From the NCBI RefSeq assembly GCF_057098645.1, contig NZ_CM169472.1: a stretch of 64,000 nt of DNA. The stretch is one strand, 5' to 3'. Both the position numbers and the translations under genes were made by a program. The notes beneath the pieces were generated by a model. It made no database searches and was not told where the DNA came from. It saw nothing but the letters and a program-made list of their open reading frames with translations. Positions within the stretch are counted from its first letter, which is position 1, and each line of letters begins with the position of its first letter. Positions 2,962-40,712 of this stretch are shown here, one piece after another.

Positions 2962-4200
2962 TTACTCACTGGAAACCAGTCGTGGCGTGATAAACACCAC
3001 TAACTCGCGTCGTTCATCTTCTTTTCCGTCATGACGAAATAATTGCCCGAACCAGGGAATGTCGCCAAGCAACGGCACGCTATCCTGACCCGATTTATTT
3101 TTACGGGTAAAAATGCCGCCCAGCGCCAACGTTTCTCCGCTTTTGACCTCGACCTGCGTTTCGATCTCCTGCTTATCAATCGCCAGCACTTCGCCATCGG
3201 CCTGCTGTAGCACCTGCCCCGGAACGTTCTGGCTGATGTGTAATTTCAGCCGGATGCGACCTTTTTGTAACACCGTGGGCGTGACCTCCATCCCCAGGAC
3301 GGCCTCTTTAAATTCCACCGACGTCGCGCCACTTTCCCCGCTGGAAACCTGATATGGAATTTCGCTCCCCTGTTTAATGCTGGCAGGCTGAAGATGTGAG
3401 GCCAGCAGACGCGGACTAGCGATAATATCCAGCTGCTGTTTTTGTTCGAGCGCAGAAAGCTCAAGATCCAGCAAACGTCCGTTGATGCGCCCAATGTTAA
3501 AACCGACATGCGTTGTCGCCGTCGCTACGGAGAGGTCGCTGCCAAGCGTGGTGACTTGCCCAACGCCACCAGCTTGTTGCGCATCGGCCAGCGTCCATTT
3601 CACGCCTAACTCACGCAAACTTTTTTCATTAATGGTGACAATATGCGCCGACAGCTCAACCTGCCCGACCGGCAGATCCATTTGCGCTGCCCACTGTTCA
3701 AGGGCGCTTAACGCCGTTTTGTTATCTCGTAGCAAAAGGCGATTGGTGCGTTTATCGACGGTCATACTCCCTTTGGCACTCAGTAGCTTTTCCCCAGCTT
3801 TCGCCAGCTCTCCGGCGTCGGCGTATTGCAGAGTAATATTGCGATTTTCCAGCGGCAGATTTGCCTGCGCCCGCGCCTGCTCCGCTTCCTGGCGGGCGAT
3901 ATTGTCATTCTGCCAGGCAATGGAATGCACTGAGAGAATGTTGCCCTCCTGGCGCGTTATCAGTCCGGCGCTTTTCACTACAGTTTGTAGTGCCTGCTTC
4001 CAGGGAACATCTGTTAGATGTAACGACACCGTACCGCTGACGTCTGGCGACACCACCAGGTTCAACTTCTCCTGTTCAGCCAGCGCCTGCAACACCTGAG
4101 CTACCGGAACGTCATCCACCATCAGCGTCACTTTTTGCGGCTTTGCCGCCTGTACGCCGGGTATCAGCATCAACAGTAGTGCGGCTATCCATTGCTTCAT
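2962..4200 (-). CDS. hofQ: Secretin-family DNA utilization protein HofQ (ComE/PilQ-like)
   Basis: 412 aa ORF with signal-peptide-like N-terminus and secretin C-terminal domain; position downstream of hofMNOP. Confidence 0.93.
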   Translation of the reverse strand: MKQWIAALLLMLIPGVQAAKPQKVTLMVDDVPVAQVLQALAEQEKLNLVVSPDVSGTVSLHLTDVPWKQALQTVVKSAGLITRQEGNILSVHSIAWQNDNIARQEAEQARAQANLPLENRNITLQYADAGELAKAGEKLLSAKGSMTVDKRTNRLLLRDNKTALSALEQWAAQMDLPVGQVELSAHIVTINEKSLRELGVKWTLADAQQAGGVGQVTTLGSDLSVATATTHVGFNIGRINGRLLDLELSALEQKQQLDIIASPRLLASHLQPASIKQGSEIPYQVSSGESGATSVEFKEAVLGMEVTPTVLQKGRIRLKLHISQNVPGQVLQQADGEVLAIDKQEIETQVEVKSGETLALGGIFTRKNKSGQDSVPLLGDIPWFGQLFRHDGKEDERRELVVFITPRLVSSE

Positions 4201-14210: not shown

Positions 14211-15935
14211 TCACTCATTCAGATTCACATCCAGCCTTTCACCATCCACTACAAGATCGCGCCACGCTTTAGGCTTCGTTCCCAGTTTTCCATCCTTCGC
14301 AGCTGTGAGTAATTTTTCTTTCGTTATATCACGCGGAAGTAAACTCATCGTAAGCTCTTGCCATTCTTTCTTGTCAGGATCAAAGCCATAGACAATGTAT
14401 CTTTCATCATTAAAAGCAAACAGGATCCGCTCCGCCTGACCATCACTATTCAGATCTTGCTCGACCAGTACGCAGGCGTCTTTTTCAATACAGGTCATCA
14501 CGTTATAGCGTTCTTTGATTAATGCCGACCAGAATGCCGCATCCGGTTTGCCAGAACCTGGTGCAATTAACACATTTTCGGCTAATGATTTTTCCGACAC
14601 CACCTTCTGAAGACTTTGCTCCCCATCTAACGCCATCAGCAGATCCCACGCGCGTTTCGGGTCTTTCATAAACCCGGCATCGCTTTTCAGCGACTCAAGC
14701 GCCGCACGTCCATAGTGACCGCTCTGTTCGAGCATGTAGATAGTTACCTGGCCTGGCGTGTTTTTGCCGCTCTGATAACGCGCCATATGACTGTTCACGC
14801 TAATGCGCATACTGTCCAGCACCGGAGAATTAAGAAGCACCAGTATTACCAACACCAATAACGAAACTGCAAGGTTCACTTTGCCCTGAAGAACAAGGGG
14901 ATTTTGCCCTTTACGCCATAGGATACTGACAAAATACCCCAGCGACCATACCAGTAACACCAGCACCACCAGCGCGCCCTGCAAGCGGTCGACAGTCCAG
15001 CCGTACTGAGCGACCCGCAGCCATAACGCCCAGGCGGCGACGAACACATACAGCGGAGCAACCAGCAAAGCGGTTTTAATCAGGCAACGCAACGGCCCCG
15101 TCCAGGGAAGTGACGCTTTTTGCGGATCGCGGACAATAGCCATTAAGATCAATTGCAAAAAGGCCAGCGTTAACAGCAACCCAGCGGCGGAGATGTGGCG
15201 AGAAATCGCACTCAGGCCTGTAAACGGCAGGGTGATGATAAACATCAGGGTTAGCAATGATACTAACGGCAGCAACCCCGTGGCGATTAACGTGAACAAC
15301 TTTTGAATAGAGTCGATTAAACGTGACTGTGTTCGCGCGAGGATCACCGCCAGCGCGGTAACCAGACCTAATGTAAGATACATAAACCAGTCGGTTGCAA
15401 AAAAGAGCGTATTGAAAAACGTGATGCCAACAAGTTTAAACAACTCACCCCACAGTAAAAGCACCAGCCACGTCAGGCCATTGGCGAGAAAAATAACCTG
15501 TAATATAAGTACGTTATGCCATACTGACTGGTAAAAATAGCGATAGCGGCTACTGTCATTGCGGATACGAAGGCTTTGTTGTATCCACGGTAGCAACAAC
15601 ATTGCCATCAGCAGCAGATAGCAGCCAAAATCCCAAAGCGCCTTTTCAGCTCTCCAGGGGTTCATGCCATCAGTTTGCCACTTCAACCAGCCGCTCATCC
15701 CCAGCGTGGCAATAAACACCAGCGCCAGCCATCCCCAAAGGCGCTTCTGTTTAAAAGAGATCACGGAGAAGAGTAAAACGGATGAAAACGCAACGGTCGC
15801 AGGCACGCCATAAACAATCCAACTGTGATTTTTTCCGGCAAGCCAGGCGATCAACAGGTAGCAAACCAGCCCCTGAAGTAATCCGGTAGCAATCATCCCC
15901 CAGCGTGTTGCGGGTGAAAGTTCAACGTTATCCAT
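14211..15935 (-). CDS. yhgE: Inner membrane protein YhgE (putative transporter)
   Basis: 574 aa ORF with many TM segments; matches YhgE position and size. Confidence 0.9.
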
Positions 15936-18011: not shown

Positions 18012-20080
<2,069 letters not shown>

Positions 20081-26205: not shown

Positions 26206-26441
26206 TGGCTTCACTTATTCAGGTACGTGATTTGCTGGCGTTACGGGGCCGTATGGAAGCGGCCCAGATAAGCCAGACATTGAACACTCCACAGCCAATG
26301 ATTAACGCCATGCTGCAACAACTGGAAAGTATGGGCAAAGCCGTGCGGATTCAGGAAGAACCTGACGGCTGCCTCTCCGGCAGTTGTAAAAGCTGTCCGG
26401 AAGGAAAAGCCTGTCTGCGCGAGTGGTGGGCGCTGCGTTAA
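26205..26441 (+). CDS. feoC: FeoC
   Basis: ATG at 26205 overlaps the feoB stop codon (taATG); [24 protein letters not shown]..., 78 aa, with a four-Cys cluster. Confidence 0.9.
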
Positions 26442-26463
26442 CCATACTCCATCGCCTGTTTTG

Positions 26464-26498
26464 AAAAGCCCGGTATGCGTTTGCATCCGGGCTTTTTT
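26464..26498 (+). terminator. Intrinsic terminator after feoC
   Basis: Stem GCCCGG / CCGGGC with 13-nt loop followed by TTTTTT. Confidence 0.65.
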
Positions 26499-26643
26499 GC
26501 GTGCGGCTTTCCATAAAAATGCAATTCTTGCAGCTCGACGTAAGTTCCTCTGAAAGCGTCTCGCAGGGATGAAAACTGGCTAATGCACAGGTGTGGAGTG
26601 GCGCGTAGAGTCGCGGCATTCAAACAACAGGTGAAGGAACGCC

Positions 26644-27522
26644 ATGAGCAAAAAGCAGAGTTCCACCCCACACGATGCGCTGTTCAAACTCTTTTTACGC
26701 CAACCGGAGACGGCACGCGATTTTCTTGCGTTTCATTTACCGGCACCCATTCACGCGCTCTGTGATATGAAAACCCTCAAGCTGGAGTCGAGCAGCTTTA
26801 TTGATGACGATCTGCGTGAAAGCTATTCCGACGTGCTGTGGTCGGTGAAAACGGAACAAGGACCAGGATACATCTATTGTCTGATTGAACATCAAAGCAC
26901 CTCAAACAAATTGATCGCATTCCGCATGATGCGTTACGCCATTGCCGCAATGCAAAATCACCTTGATGCCGGATACAAAACGTTGCCGATGGTGGTGCCA
27001 TTGTTGTTTTATCACGGTATTGAAAGCCCCTATCCCTATTCGCTGTGTTGGCTGGATTGTTTCGCCGATCCCAAACTGGCAAGGCAGCTTTATGCCTCCG
27101 CATTTCCGCTGATTGATGTCACCGTCATGCCTGATGATGAAATCATGCAGCACCGACGTATGGCGCTGCTGGAGTTAATTCAAAAACATATTCGTCAACG
27201 CGACCTGATGGGGCTGGTAGAGCAAATGGCCTGCTTATTAAGTAGTGGATACGCTAATGACAGACAAATCAAAGGGCTGTTTAATTACATCTTGCAAACC
27301 GGCGATGCGGTACGTTTTAACGATTTTATCGACGGCGTTGCCGAACGTTCACCGAAACACAAGGAGAGTTTAATGACTATTGCGGAAAGATTGCGGCAGG
27401 AGGGGTTTCAGAAAGGTATACGTACTATTGCCAAAACCATGCTGGATGCCGGAGTCCCTCTTGAGGACGTTCTGCGATTTACCGGGCTGTCAGAGGAAGA
27501 ATTGGCTGCGGCGAGCCAGTAG
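26644..27522 (+). CDS. yhgA: Rpn-family recombination-promoting nuclease YhgA (PD-(D/E)XK, transposase_31-like)
   Basis: 292 aa [31 protein letters not shown]...; size and sequence as recalled for YhgA/RpnA. Confidence 0.9.
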
Positions 27523-27537
27523 ACACTATCCCCTGCT

Positions 27538-27584
27538 TAAGTGCTACTTTGTGCTATCTTGCATGTAACACAAAGTAGCACTTA
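27538..27584. promoter_or_regulatory. Perfect 16-bp inverted repeat (TAAGTGCTACTTTGTG - 15 nt - CACAAAGTAGCACTTA) upstream of the antitoxin start
   Basis: Arms at 27538-27553 and 27569-27584 are exact reverse complements; right arm ends 10 bp before the antitoxin ATG (AGGAA ribosome-binding site at 27584-27588). Candidate operator or repeat element. Confidence 0.5.
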
Positions 27585-27593
27585 GGAACTGAT

Positions 27594-27863
27594 ATGCAGA
27601 CAGTGAAATTACGGCAACAAGGAGGAGCCATAATCGTTACTATCCCACGAGATCTTGCCACCGATCTTGGCTGGTCACCGGGCACAGAGCTTACCGTGGA
27701 GAAAAAGGGCGATAGCGTTAATTTGCGCGCCACAGAGCACAAACCTCGTGGGCGTCTTACCGTCGCGCAGTTGTTGAGCCAGATCGATGAAAACGAAATT
27801 AAGGCCTTAAATCAGTCCTCAGAAGGATGGGCTGAAGAGAAAAAAGGTAATGAAGCATGGTAA
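27594..27863 (+). CDS. MazE/ChpS-like (AbrB/SpoVT-fold) type II antitoxin
   Basis: 89 aa ORF MQTVKLRQQGGAIIVTIPRDLATDLGW...; swapped-hairpin-type N-terminus and acidic C-terminus; stop overlaps the downstream toxin start. Confidence 0.8.
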   Translation: MQTVKLRQQGGAIIVTIPRDLATDLGWSPGTELTVEKKGDSVNLRATEHKPRGRLTVAQLLSQIDENEIKALNQSSEGWAEEKKGNEAW

Positions 27864-28225
27864 AGGCACGGACGCCACATCGTGGTGAGATCTGGTGTTT
27901 TAACCCTGATCCGGTTGCCGGGCATGAACTTCGGGGTCCACATTATTGCATTGTGGTAACGGACAAAGAGCTCAACAATGTTTTAAAAGTTGCTATGTGC
28001 TGCCCGATTTCAACAGGGGCAAATGCGGCACGTTCCTCAGGGGTGACGGTGAACGTCCTCCCCCATGATACGCAAACCGGTAACCTGCATGGCGTTGTGC
28101 TCTGTCACCAGCTAAAAGCTGTCGATCTTATTGCCCGTGGCGCTAAATTTCATACCGTTGCCGATGAAGCATTGATTAGTGAGGTGATCGGTAAACTGGT
28201 GAATTTAATCGACCCACAACAGTAG
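27857..28225 (+). CDS. MazF/PemK/ChpB-family endoribonuclease toxin
   Basis: 122 aa ORF MVKARTPHRGEIWCFNPDPVAGHELRGPHYCIVV...HGVVLCHQLKAVDL; pattern parallels ChpBK/MazF (RGDIVLV.FDP..GHE...P.T......G.HGVVL.NQ....D); ATG overlaps the antitoxin stop (ATGGTAA). Confidence 0.82.
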   Translation: MVKARTPHRGEIWCFNPDPVAGHELRGPHYCIVVTDKELNNVLKVAMCCPISTGANAARSSGVTVNVLPHDTQTGNLHGVVLCHQLKAVDLIARGAKFHTVADEALISEVIGKLVNLIDPQQ

Positions 28226-28239
28226 CCCTGACTTACCAC

Positions 28240-29731
<1,492 letters not shown>

Positions 29732-39951: not shown

Positions 39952-40236
39952 ATGAATATGAAACCGGAAAGCAAAGAAGCGCCAATCAATATCAGAGCGA
40001 AAGCCTCACAGCGTGACCTGATTGATATGGCAGCGAATCTGGTCGCAAAATCGCGCACTGATTTTATGCTGGATGCCGCATGCCGTGAAGCGCAAGACAT
40101 CTTATTAGATCAACGACTATTCATCCTTGATGACGAGCAATACGATGCGTTTCTCGCTGCCCTGGACGCCCCCATCACTGCTGAGCGTCAGGCCAAAATT
40201 AACGCGTTGATGAATCGTAAATCGCCATGGGAATAA
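39952..40236 (+). CDS. DUF1778-type (RHH, TacA/AtaR/KacA-like) type II antitoxin
   Basis: 94 aa ORF MNMKPESKEAPINIRAKASQRDLIDMAANLVAKSRTDFMLDAACREAQDILLDQRLF...; closely parallels the TacA/AtaR antitoxin pattern; 3' end overlaps the toxin start. Confidence 0.82.
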   Translation: MNMKPESKEAPINIRAKASQRDLIDMAANLVAKSRTDFMLDAACREAQDILLDQRLFILDDEQYDAFLAALDAPITAERQAKINALMNRKSPWE

Positions 40237-40712
40237 CGGCTCCTACTCCCCTAACGTCTGAACATAATCTGGCTGACTTTTGCTGTTCCGATCACGGGAT
40301 GAATGAATGGCTAAAAAAGAAAGCGTTAAAAAATCACAGCACCGGTCTGTCTCGTGTTTACGTTATCTGTATTGTCAATACCCGCCAGGTAATCGGCTAT
40401 TACTGCCTTTCTACAGGCAGTATTCAACGTAATTTGGCCCCTGGAGCCATGCGACGTAATGCTCCCGAATCGTTGCCTGTTGTCGTATTAGGCAGACTGG
40501 CAATTGATCAAGCCTGGGCAGGTAAAGGGTTGGGCGTCGCATTGTTGAAAGATGCAGTCTATCGCACAATGTCCATAGCTCAACAGGTAGGGGTTCGTGC
40601 GCTCATTGTTCATGCCTTAGACGATTCAGTACGCAATTTCTATCTGAAGTATGCCTTTGTACCTTCACCATTCCAGTCACTTACCTTACTGTATCCCATT
40701 ACTCTGGAGTAA
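40227..40712 (+). CDS. GNAT-family acetyltransferase toxin (TacT/AtaT/ItaT/KacT-like; predicted aminoacyl-tRNA acetyltransferase)
   Basis: 161 aa ORF with acetyl-CoA binding motif region (VLGRLAIDQAWAGKGLGVALLKDAV) and overall pattern shared with TacT; ATG lies inside the antitoxin 3' end (CCATGGGAATAA). Confidence 0.82.
   Translation: MGITAPTPLTSEHNLADFCCSDHGMNEWLKKKALKNHSTGLSRVYVICIVNTRQVIGYYCLSTGSIQRNLAPGAMRRNAPESLPVVVLGRLAIDQAWAGKGLGVALLKDAVYRTMSIAQQVGVRALIVHALDDSVRNFYLKYAFVPSPFQSLTLLYPITLE

What the first reader, a model, noticed from the sequence alone, without database searches (positions are those of the whole stretch)
27594..28225. MazE/MazF-like toxin-antitoxin module inserted between yhgA and bioH
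Two co-directional small genes with a 7-nt start/stop overlap encode an AbrB-fold antitoxin and a MazF/PemK/ChpB-like endoribonuclease. As I recall the K-12 arrangement, yhgA and bioH are separated by only a few tens of bp, so this ~0.7 kb segment is strain-variable cargo. It lies next to an Rpn-family nuclease gene (yhgA), a possible link to how it was acquired.
Basis: partly seen in the sequence, partly recalled or inferred. Interest (0 to 1): 0.55.

Follow-up and report, generated by a model that had tools for sequence, protein, structure and literature searches.

The report
Strain-variable MazEF/Kid-like toxin-antitoxin operon
A small, apparently self-regulated toxin-antitoxin gene pair of the MazEF/Kis-Kid family sits between rpnA (yhgA) and bioH in this E. 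coli strain but in under 1% of complete E. coli genomes; it is an ordinary, already-annotated accessory module whose one unusual feature is a histidine where MazF toxins have their catalytic arginine.

Summary
Two co-directional ORFs, 27594-27863 (89 aa) and 27857-28225 (122 aa), overlap by 7 nt and fill a 717-bp rpnA-bioH gap that is 28 bp in K-12.

The upstream protein is a MazE/AbrB-type antitoxin. The downstream one is a PemK/MazF/Kid-fold toxin: Pfam 1.5e-18, Kid in the PDB 3e-17, and Foldseek ranks Kid and MazF first.

Just upstream, a 19-nt inverted repeat holds four GTGCTAC-like heptamers at 10-bp spacing. The same motif recurs upstream of relatives in other genera, so it is probably the operator.

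Only 43 of 5,426 complete E. coli genomes carry the module, always at this site. Shigella flexneri and E. marmotae carry it there too. RefSeq already annotates it; I found no experimental work.

- **Active site.** The residue aligned with the catalytic Arg (MazF R29) is an invariant His in this clade, so RNase activity is inferred, not shown.
- **Direction of the event.** Insertion versus loss is not proven.
- **Rpn link.** Relatives elsewhere lie by cas3/cse1, in a T3SS cluster or on plasmids, not by rpn genes. However, rpnA's 3' end is recombinogenic here.

Verdict: a new, uncharacterised member of a known kind; low to moderate interest.

The parts
26644..27522 (+). rpnA (yhgA), recombination-promoting nuclease RpnA, 292 aa; left flank of the module
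   Evidence: ORF. NCBIfam NF007361 RpnA scores 680 bits against a cut-off of 583. RefSeq annotates it as rpnA.
27409..27522 (+). Variant 3' tail of rpnA (…[27 protein letters not shown]…) in the known hypervariable RpnS region
   Evidence: It diverges from K-12 after …CGGCAGGAGGGG. At >=95% identity this tail occurs in only 41 of 5,426 genomes, consistent with 41 of the 43 carriers; the two hit lists were not compared genome by genome. Carriers LHM10-1 and S. flexneri have the K-12-type tail, so the tail is not part of the inserted unit. RpnS hypervariability is described in PMC10327210.
27538..27584 (.). Candidate operator: 19-nt inverted repeat TAAGTGCTACTTTGTGCTA / TAACACAAAGTAGCACTTA with a 9-nt spacer. 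It holds four GTGCTAC-like heptamers at 27541-47 and 27551-57 (direct) and 27565-71 and 27575-81 (inverted), 10 bp apart within each arm
   Evidence: the repeat finder reports 95% complementarity. The same heptamers (<=1 mismatch, 2-5 copies) lie upstream of the antitoxin in 9 of 13 family loci, against 0.2 expected per 110 nt. Homology with the Klebsiella spallanzanii module begins exactly here.
27552..27560 (+). Possible extended -10 promoter element TGcTATCTT inside the left operator arm (weak call, read by eye)
   Evidence: Read from the sequence. The Klebsiella relative has TGCTATATT at the same place. The consensus promoter scan, which needs both hexamers, found nothing.
27594..27863 (+). 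Antitoxin gene, 89 aa: N-terminal MazE/AbrB-type DNA-binding domain (about residues 5-46) and a helical C-terminal tail ending in the conserved GNEAW
   Evidence: Pfam PF04014 E=1e-5. NCBIfam Agrobacterium MazE E=9e-9, below cut-off. The family profile hits MazE chains in the PDB only marginally, E 0.02-0.05. The AF2 model (pLDDT 75) has beta-beta-alpha-beta-beta topology, and Foldseek ranks E. coli MazE 1ub4_C first, followed by AbrB-type VapB, AbrB and SpoVT.
27857..28225 (+). Toxin gene, 122 aa, PemK/MazF/Kid fold; probable sequence-specific endoribonuclease with His29 in place of the canonical catalytic Arg
   Evidence: Pfam PF02452 E=1.5e-18. Kid 1m1f E=3.3e-17. NCBIfam MazF-at, ChpB and MazF all fall below cut-off. 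The AF2 model (pLDDT 71.5) puts Kid and MazF first in Foldseek.
28240..29010 (-). bioH, convergent right flank; its stop codon lies 14 bp after the toxin stop
   Evidence: Identity with K-12 resumes at CCAC|CTACACCC.

Best explanation
This is an intact, self-contained chromosomal type II toxin-antitoxin operon of the MazEF / Kis-Kid (PemIK) / ChpB superfamily. The unit runs from about 27538 to 28225 (roughly 690 bp) and consists of operator/promoter, antitoxin gene and toxin gene.

Shown here: the gene order and the 7-nt overlap; family and fold membership of both proteins; a conserved repeated heptamer motif upstream; presence in only 43 of 5,426 complete E. coli genomes, always at the rpnA-bioH site.

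Inferred from the family:
- The antitoxin dimer binds the GTGCTAC heptamers through its AbrB-type N-terminal domain and represses the operon.
- Its C-terminal tail (…GNEAW) wraps the toxin dimer and blocks it.
- When the labile antitoxin is no longer replenished, the toxin is freed and cleaves single-stranded RNA at a short sequence without needing the ribosome, which arrests growth.

In this clade the general acid/base is probably His29, possibly acting with His84, instead of the Arg used by MazF. The likely biological role is stabilisation of its DNA (addiction) or abortive phage defence; that role was not tested.

The module most likely entered the rpnA-bioH spacer once in an Escherichia ancestor or lineage. 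It has since moved or been lost through homologous recombination in the flanking core genes.
For: - **ORFs and overlap:**
- **Toxin family and fold:** Pfam PemK_toxin 1.5e-18; Kid 3.3e-17 aligned over residues 8-117; Foldseek top hits are Kid, D. radiodurans MazF and E. coli MazF, probability 1.00.
- **RNA-site residues kept:** E24 (invariant), H23 (= Kid/MazF-SEA His17), S52 (= Thr46/Thr52), R59 (= Arg53), R94. Their roles are described in PMC8887465, PMC10893535, PMC10864209 and PMC8160871. Leu at the Kid-R73 position is normal for MazFs that cleave UAC, UACA or UACAU.
- **His29 is not a lesion:** it is invariant in the 20-sequence clade and present in 37 of the 130 nearest 50%-identity clusters.
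- **Antitoxin:**
- **Operator motif conserved across genera:**
- **Limits of the unit:** homology with Klebsiella spallanzanii runs only from the operator to the toxin stop.
- **Closest curated family:** MazF-at of Agrobacterium is the best NCBIfam match and is an experimentally shown ribosome-independent RNase neutralised by its MazE.
- **Selection:** dN/dS is 0.26-0.36 for the window toxin against the diverged Escherichia alleles LHM10-1, RM11911, A35 and E. marmotae.
- **Distribution:**. Plasmid-borne relatives at 56-66% identity occur in Rahnella, Serratia and Arsenophonus.
Against: - No experiment exists for this clade in the literature I could search.
- The canonical catalytic Arg is absent (H29), and Kid's R73 and D75 are L82 and H84.
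- Three E. coli genomes share one allele at 96.5% identity. In the one examined, PE164, the antitoxin has a premature stop (W27*) beside an intact toxin ORF. That would be lethal if the toxin were fully active and expressed.
- Among close E. coli alleles, toxin dN/dS is about 1-1.9, with changes at otherwise conserved positions (R59H, D90N, G79S). The antitoxin is unchanged between those same alleles. The number of sites is small.
- No consensus sigma-70 promoter was found by the scan.
- No PADLOC defence model matches either protein.
Confidence: 0.75

Rival explanations
1. The module is a decaying or attenuated remnant. The toxin is weak or inactive in Escherichia, and the pair persists as a harmless passenger, or the antitoxin is kept as an anti-addiction factor or regulator.
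For: The catalytic Arg is replaced by His. PE164, one of three genomes sharing its allele, has a nonsense codon in the antitoxin next to an intact toxin carrying Y30H, S52T and G54E. Toxin dN/dS is about 1 or higher among close E. coli alleles, while antitoxin dN is 0. Truncated toxin forms of 75-100 aa are recorded in S. flexneri, for example strain 2457T. The window allele has Y14C where other Escherichia alleles have Tyr.
Against: His29 is invariant across genera and common in neighbouring clusters, so it is not a lesion. PGAP annotates the toxin as a protein-coding gene in all 43 E. coli carriers, and the ORF is intact in the six carrier loci examined, window included. The operator is preserved. 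The window toxin shows dN/dS of about 0.3 against the diverged alleles. The window copy has no change at any invariant column.
Confidence: 0.17
2. The toxin keeps the MazF/CcdB fold but has a target other than RNA, such as gyrase in the manner of CcdB.
For: CcdB shares this fold (established knowledge), and the catalytic Arg is missing here.
Against: All sequence and fold matches are to Kid, MazF and ChpB RNases. The residues that hold RNA in MazF and Kid (E24, H23, S52, R59, R94) are conserved.
Confidence: 0.04
3. The module works together with RpnA. RpnA is itself a toxin (RpnL) with an intragenic antitoxin (RpnS), so the two would form a composite defence locus, and Rpn activity would have captured the module.
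For: The FQKGIR-type RpnS tail is found in only 41 of 5,426 genomes, matching 41 of the 43 module carriers. In E. marmotae the operator and first antitoxin codons are replaced by a copy of the rpnA internal start region, giving MTIAERLRQ fused to QGGAM…. PMC10327210 suggests RpnL may start recombination that creates small RpnS-like genes downstream of rpn genes.
Against: Carriers LHM10-1 and S. flexneri have the K-12-type tail. Relatives in Klebsiella, Pantoea, Pectobacterium, Brenneria, Rahnella and others are not adjacent to any rpn gene. There are no flanking repeats or other mobility signatures.
Confidence: 0.04

Closest known systems
Kis-Kid (parD of plasmid R1) = PemI-PemK (R100)
   Same: Best solved-structure match: 1m1f, E=3.3e-17, about 30-34% identity, same fold. 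AbrB-type antitoxin encoded first. A palindromic operator overlaps the promoter region (the operator comparison rests on family knowledge). His17 and Arg53 equivalents are kept, and Thr46 is replaced conservatively by Ser52.
   Different: Kid R23 is His29 here, R73 is Leu82 and D75 is His84. This module is chromosomal. The toxin has about 12 extra residues, including a longer loop at 66-77. The antitoxin has no detectable sequence match to Kis in the PDB.
ChpBI-ChpBK of E. coli K-12
   Same: Chromosomal E. coli MazF paralogue. The NCBIfam ChpB model matches full length, E=4e-17. From memory of the ChpBK sequence, not checked here, it shares the GVVL(C/V)xQ strand with Leu at the Kid-R73 position.
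   Different: The score of 62 bits is far below the equivalog cut-off of 129, so this is not a ChpB orthologue. ChpBK keeps the catalytic Arg (from memory, not tested here). It lies at a different locus.
MazE-MazF of E. coli
   Same: Same fold and gene order. Foldseek ranks E. coli MazE (1ub4_C) first for the antitoxin model. E24 is conserved. The antitoxin ends in Trp, as I recall MazE does.
   Different: 27% identity. NCBIfam MazF scores 37 bits against a cut-off of 120. R29 is His and T52 is Ser.
MazEF-at (Atu0939/Atu0940) of Agrobacterium tumefaciens
   Same: Best NCBIfam family for both proteins: toxin E=5.6e-27 over the full length, antitoxin E=9e-9. MazF-at is a shown ribosome-independent RNase, E24 is required for its toxicity, and MazE-at neutralises it (PMC8160871).
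   Different: Both scores are below the equivalog cut-offs (94 against 150 bits; 35 against 130 bits). Alphaproteobacterial relatives recovered here keep Arg at position 29 (…NPRY…). The MazF-at sequence itself was not examined.

Membership tests
PemK/MazF/Kid toxin superfamily (Pfam PF02452) | Significant match to the family profile over the whole domain | tested here: met
   PF02452 E=1.5e-18, residues 9-114 against model positions 2-105 of 109.
PemK/MazF/Kid toxin superfamily (Pfam PF02452) | Kid/MazF fold | tested here: met
   AF2 model with pLDDT 71.5 and pTM 0.66. The top 50 Foldseek PDB hits are all Kid, MazF, PemK or MoxT, with TM 0.6-0.8 and probability 1.00. The 55-67 loop is of low confidence.
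PemK/MazF/Kid toxin superfamily (Pfam PF02452) | Catalytic Arg (E. coli MazF R29, B. subtilis MazF R25, Kid/MazF-SEA R23) | tested here: not met
   The aligned residue is His29, in an ungapped alignment to Kid and MazF. It is invariant in the clade. Of the 130 nearest clusters, 37 have His and 89 have Arg. The role of the Arg is described in PMC8887465 and PMC10893535.
PemK/MazF/Kid toxin superfamily (Pfam PF02452) | Stabilising Thr (E. coli MazF T52, B. subtilis MazF T48, Kid T46) and the Glu needed for toxicity (E24) | tested here: met
   Ser52 is a conservative replacement that keeps the hydroxyl (Ser in 25 and Thr in 99 of 130 clusters). E24 is invariant.
PemK/MazF/Kid toxin superfamily (Pfam PF02452) | Sequence-specific, ribosome-independent RNA cleavage that the cognate antitoxin neutralises | not testable with these tools
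   Needs expression and cleavage assays.
Kid-type active site (His17, Arg73, Asp75; Kamphuis 2006, as cited in PMC8887465) | All three residues present | tested here: not met
   H23 matches His17, but R73 is Leu82 and D75 is His84. Leu at this position is a specificity variant in other active MazFs.
NCBIfam equivalogs ChpB (NF007320), MazF (NF007386) and MazF-at (NF052489) | Score at or above the curated cut-off | tested here: not met
   62 against 129, 37 against 120 and 94 against 150 bits. The toxin is an orthologue of none of them.
MazE/AbrB/SpoVT-type antitoxin (Pfam PF04014) | N-terminal swapped-hairpin DNA-binding domain | tested here: met
   PF04014 E=1e-5 over residues 7-41. The AF2 topology is beta-beta-alpha-beta-beta. 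Foldseek ranks MazE 1ub4_C first (probability 1.00, E=0.02), then AbrB-type VapB, truncated E. coli MazE (rmsd 1.6 over 46 columns), AbrB and SpoVT. All E-values are weak because the domain is small.
Type II toxin-antitoxin operon | Antitoxin gene first with coupled or overlapping reading frames, and repeated or palindromic operator sites at the promoter | tested here: met
   Four heptamers in an inverted repeat, conserved in relatives, are. Binding itself was not tested.
Mobile element (IS, transposon, integron cassette or prophage) | Terminal repeats, target-site duplication, or a recombinase gene | tested here: not met
   No such repeats were found. Homology with the nearest relative outside Escherichia ends at the operator and at the toxin stop. 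The neighbours are core genes.

The most novel reading that the evidence does not exclude
The 'GPHY…GVVLCHQ' clade would be a catalytic variant of MazF-fold RNases that uses histidine (His29, perhaps with His84) instead of arginine as general acid/base, with an unknown cleavage specificity. In addition, the 3' end of rpnA would be a recombination hot spot that can rewire the expression of neighbouring genes, as in the E. marmotae chimera where RpnS translation signals replace the operator and the start of the antitoxin.
Probability: 0.3. Interest if true: 0.45.

Novelty: new member of a known kind. Interest (0 to 1): 0.25.

Why it matters
The practical value is modest. The module marks particular lineages: O145:H28 Shiga-toxin-producing E. 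coli, S. flexneri and E. marmotae.

It is also an untested subgroup of MazF-like toxins in which the catalytic arginine is replaced by histidine. If the toxin is active, it would show that MazF-fold RNases tolerate a different catalytic residue, and it might add a new cleavage specificity for RNA tools.

The junctions also add examples to the reported hypervariability of the RpnA C-terminal (RpnS) region.

None of this challenges current understanding of toxin-antitoxin systems.

Tried and rejected
1. **Left breakpoint inside rpnA.** The first three-way alignment put the left breakpoint inside rpnA, which suggested that the insert carries its own rpnA tail. I rejected this as a rule. The RpnA proteins are collinear at 292 aa, with only a locally diverged RpnS segment. 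S. flexneri and E. coli LHM10-1 carry the module behind a K-12-type tail. The insertion is therefore intergenic, directly after the rpnA stop codon.
2. **Flanking direct repeat.** I considered CCCTGCTTA (left) and CCCTGACTTA (right) as a target duplication or deletion substrate. It is imperfect, it is not kept in S. flexneri (right flank GCTCTCACTTACC), and K-12's spacer is not the predicted deletion product. Not supported.
3. **Recombination tract boundaries.** The 400-bp identity profile against O157:H7 and other carriers shows a generally mosaic region with no clean boundaries.
4. **Consensus promoter and terminator scan.** No promoter was found, and the only terminator-like site is inside rpnA on the minus strand.
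5. **Rfam search of 26400-29200.** Only sub-threshold miRNA-type matches to the hairpin.
6. **PADLOC defence models.** No match for either protein.
7. **phmmer of the antitoxin against the PDB.** Nothing meaningful. The family profile gave only marginal MazE hits.
8. **Inverted repeat as the rpnA terminator.** There is no U-tract after it, and the motif is conserved in relatives that are not downstream of rpn genes. This is unlikely to be its main role.
9. **Literature searches.** No study of this module was found.

Full report
**Observation.** The ORF list and the sequence confirm two co-directional ORFs. The first is 27594..27863 (89 aa) and the second is 27857..28225 (122 aa). The second ATG overlaps the first TAA, giving the 7-nt overlap GC-ATGGTAA. 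They lie between rpnA/yhgA (26644..27522, +) and bioH (28240..29010, -).

**Identity of the two proteins: the toxin.**
- It matches Pfam PemK_toxin at E=1.5e-18 over the whole domain.
- It matches the Kid toxin of plasmid R1 at E=3.3e-17 in the PDB.
- An AF2 model (pLDDT 71.5) retrieves only Kid, MazF and PemK structures at the top of a Foldseek search.
- In NCBIfam the best models are Agrobacterium MazF (94 bits, cut-off 150), ChpB (62, cut-off 129) and MazF (37, cut-off 120). It therefore belongs to the superfamily but is an orthologue of none of the curated toxins.

**Identity of the two proteins: the antitoxin.**
- It matches Pfam MazE_antitoxin at E=1e-5 over residues 7-41 and Agrobacterium MazE at E=9e-9.
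- It has no PDB match as a single sequence, and as a family profile only marginal matches to MazE chains.
- Its AF2 model (pLDDT 75) has the beta-beta-alpha-beta-beta topology. Foldseek ranks E. coli MazE first, followed by AbrB-type VapB antitoxins, AbrB and SpoVT.
- RefSeq annotates the same two genes as 'AbrB/MazE/SpoVT family DNA-binding domain-containing protein' and 'type II toxin-antitoxin system PemK/MazF family toxin'.

**Regulatory region.**
- Sixteen bases after the rpnA stop there is a 19-nt inverted repeat, 27538-27556 and 27566-27584, 95% complementary with a 9-nt spacer.
- It consists of four GTGCTAC-like heptamers. Two are direct (27541, 27551) and two inverted (27565, 27575), spaced 10 bp within each arm.
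- The same heptamers (at most one mismatch) occur in 2-5 copies just upstream of the antitoxin gene in relatives from Klebsiella, Pantoea, Pectobacterium, Brenneria, Rahnella, Lonepinella and Winslowiella. That is 9 of 13 loci, against 0.2 hits expected per 110 nt.
- This is what an operator for an AbrB-type antitoxin should look like.
- By eye, an extended -10 element (TGcTATCTT, 27552-27560; TGCTATATT in Klebsiella) lies inside the left arm. The consensus scan, which requires both hexamers, found no promoter, so this call is weak.
- Rfam gives nothing above threshold.

**Active site.**
- The literature places catalysis by MazF on Arg29 and Thr52 in E. coli (Arg25 and Thr48 in B. subtilis). 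For Kid it names Arg73, His17 and Asp75 (PMC8887465, PMC10893535).
- In ungapped alignments the window toxin has His29 at the Arg position, Ser52 at the Thr position, His23 at Kid His17, Leu82 at Kid Arg73 and His84 at Kid Asp75.
- Glu24 (needed for toxicity in E. coli MazF and MazF-at), Arg59 (Arg53, RNA capture) and Arg94 are kept.
- Leu at the Arg73 position is the normal state in MazFs that cleave UAC, UACA or UACAU, and it affects specificity rather than catalysis.
- His29 is not a lesion. It is invariant in 20 clade members from Escherichia to Gallibacterium. It occurs in 37 of the 130 nearest 50%-identity clusters out of 1.84 billion proteins, against 89 with Arg. More distant alphaproteobacterial relatives have Arg in the same …PRY… context.
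- The family feature 'catalytic Arg' is therefore not met. The most likely reading is a His-using variant of the same RNase, and this is inference.

**Distribution.**
- Megablast of the 717-bp spacer finds it in 43 of 5,426 complete E. coli genomes. There is always one chromosomal copy, in at least four haplotypes (99.7-99.9%, 96.5%, 95.7% and 95.4-95.5% identity).
- The top group is O145:H28 and close relatives. The window is 99.9% identical to O145 strain RM9872.
- All five carrier loci fetched show feoC-rpnA-[module]-bioH.
- The other genomes have no remnant of the module.
- The module is also at this site in Shigella flexneri, where it is very common in public assemblies.
- It is also there in a second Escherichia species whose flanks are 91-93% identical to the window. 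Cluster members with this toxin are named E. marmotae.
- Among carriers the module's DNA is more diverged (4-6%) than the flanks (1-3%).
- Outside Escherichia the closest relative is in Klebsiella spallanzanii (toxin 85% identical). Homology there runs only from the operator to the toxin stop.
- More distant relatives lie between cas3 and cse1 of type I-E CRISPR-Cas loci (Pectobacterium, Brenneria), inside a T3SS cluster next to yefM-yoeB (Pantoea), and on plasmids (Rahnella, Serratia, Arsenophonus).
- No repeats, target duplication or recombinase accompany it.
- I infer a minimal, horizontally mobile operon that entered this spacer once in Escherichia and has since spread or been lost by homologous recombination in the flanks. 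The direction of the event and the number of events were not tested.

**The Rpn question.**
- rpnA encodes a nuclease toxin (RpnL) and an internally initiated antitoxin (RpnS) whose C-terminal region is hypervariable (PMC10327210).
- In the window the RpnA tail diverges from K-12 starting 11 residues after the internal Met: [12 protein letters not shown]… against EGEQSKALHIAK….
- At 95% identity or more, this tail is found in only 41 genomes, matching 41 of the 43 module carriers.
- LHM10-1 and S. flexneri carry the module with the K-12 tail, so tail and module are separable.
- In the E. marmotae-type locus the operator and the first antitoxin codons are replaced by a 40-bp copy of the rpnA internal start region. 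The crossover lies in ATT(G/A)CGGCA and gives MTIAERLRQ fused to QGGAM….
- These facts show that rpnA's 3' end is recombinogenic. They do not show that Rpn inserted the module, and relatives elsewhere are not associated with rpn genes.

**Is the toxin active?**
- For: intact ORFs in the carrier loci examined; a conserved operator; no substitution at invariant columns in the window allele, whose only oddity is Y14C at a variable position; dN/dS of about 0.3 for the window toxin against the diverged alleles.
- Against: PE164, one of three genomes sharing its allele, has W27* in the antitoxin with an intact toxin carrying Y30H, S52T and G54E. Close E. coli alleles differ mostly by non-synonymous changes in the toxin (R59H, D90N) and by none in the antitoxin. 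S. flexneri has truncated forms.
- The counts are small. I put about 0.17 on an attenuated-remnant reading for the Escherichia copies.

**Verdict.** This is a real, correctly located and already-annotated type II toxin-antitoxin operon of the MazEF/Kid superfamily, strain-variable at a fixed site. It is a new, uncharacterised member of a known kind. The one feature worth a bench test is the His-for-Arg active site shared by its clade. Interest is 0.25.

Noticed in passing
L008 3700-3790 (also L009); E. marmotae-type Escherichia: The operator and the first codons of the antitoxin are replaced by a 40-bp duplicate of the rpnA internal start region (AAGGAGAGTTTAATGACTATTGCaGAAAGATTaCGGCA). The crossover lies in a short microhomology and gives a chimeric antitoxin that starts [17 protein letters not shown]. 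Only 19 bp separate it from a 308-aa rpnA that carries QGVQ repeats.
   Followed up: partly
window 27409-27522: This RpnA C-terminal (RpnS-region) allele, [27 protein letters not shown], occurs at >=95% identity in only 41 of 5,426 E. coli genomes, matching 41 of the 43 module carriers. Two carriers and S. flexneri have the K-12-type tail instead.
   Followed up: yes
L003 2600-2820 (E. coli SWHEFF_58; similar alleles H3 and H75-H80): A third rpnA-bioH allele has no toxin-antitoxin module. Its rpnA is 297 aa with a different tail, and the spacer is 219 bp. The spacer holds a small RpnS-like ORF (MTDAEREYLISYLIGYLLDRRLEALDIAKRML*) fused to a remnant of the K-12-type tail. [quoted passage not shown]
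   Followed up: partly
L005, L006, L007 (Pectobacterium), L011, L012 (Brenneria): Homologues of this module (toxin 64-66% identical) sit between cas3 and cse1/cas8e of type I-E CRISPR-Cas loci and have the same operator half-sites. A pemK downstream of cas3 in Pectobacterium was already remarked in PMC6963963.
   Followed up: partly
L025 8072-8341 (E. coli PE164; E105 and F2_81 share the 96.5% allele but were not examined): The antitoxin gene has an internal stop (W27*, flagged as a pseudogene by PGAP) while the toxin ORF is intact but carries Y30H, S52T and G54E. This suggests an inactivated or unexpressed toxin.
   Followed up: partly
L029, L030 (Shigella flexneri), about 3356-3400: S. flexneri carries the module at the same site. 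The bioH stop codon is mutated (CTA to CAA on the + strand), which extends BioH to 262 aa so that it abuts the toxin stop. Truncated toxin forms of 75-100 aa are also on record, for example in strain 2457T.
   Followed up: partly
window 27632 region and 27896-27898: The window antitoxin has Ile13 where RM9872 and all other alleles have Met; this is the single difference from RM9872 in the module. The O145-type toxin has Cys14 where other Escherichia alleles have Tyr.
   Followed up: partly
window 39952-40712: A second small overlapping gene pair (94 aa and 161 aa) lies between malT and rtcA. At the corresponding position O157:H7 has a DUF1778 protein plus a GNAT acetyltransferase, which is a TacAT-like toxin-antitoxin pair.
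   Followed up: no
window 14400-14800 and 18400-18800: Identity to O157:H7 drops locally to 91.5% and 95.5% in a region that is otherwise about 99% identical. These may be small recombination patches.
   Followed up: no
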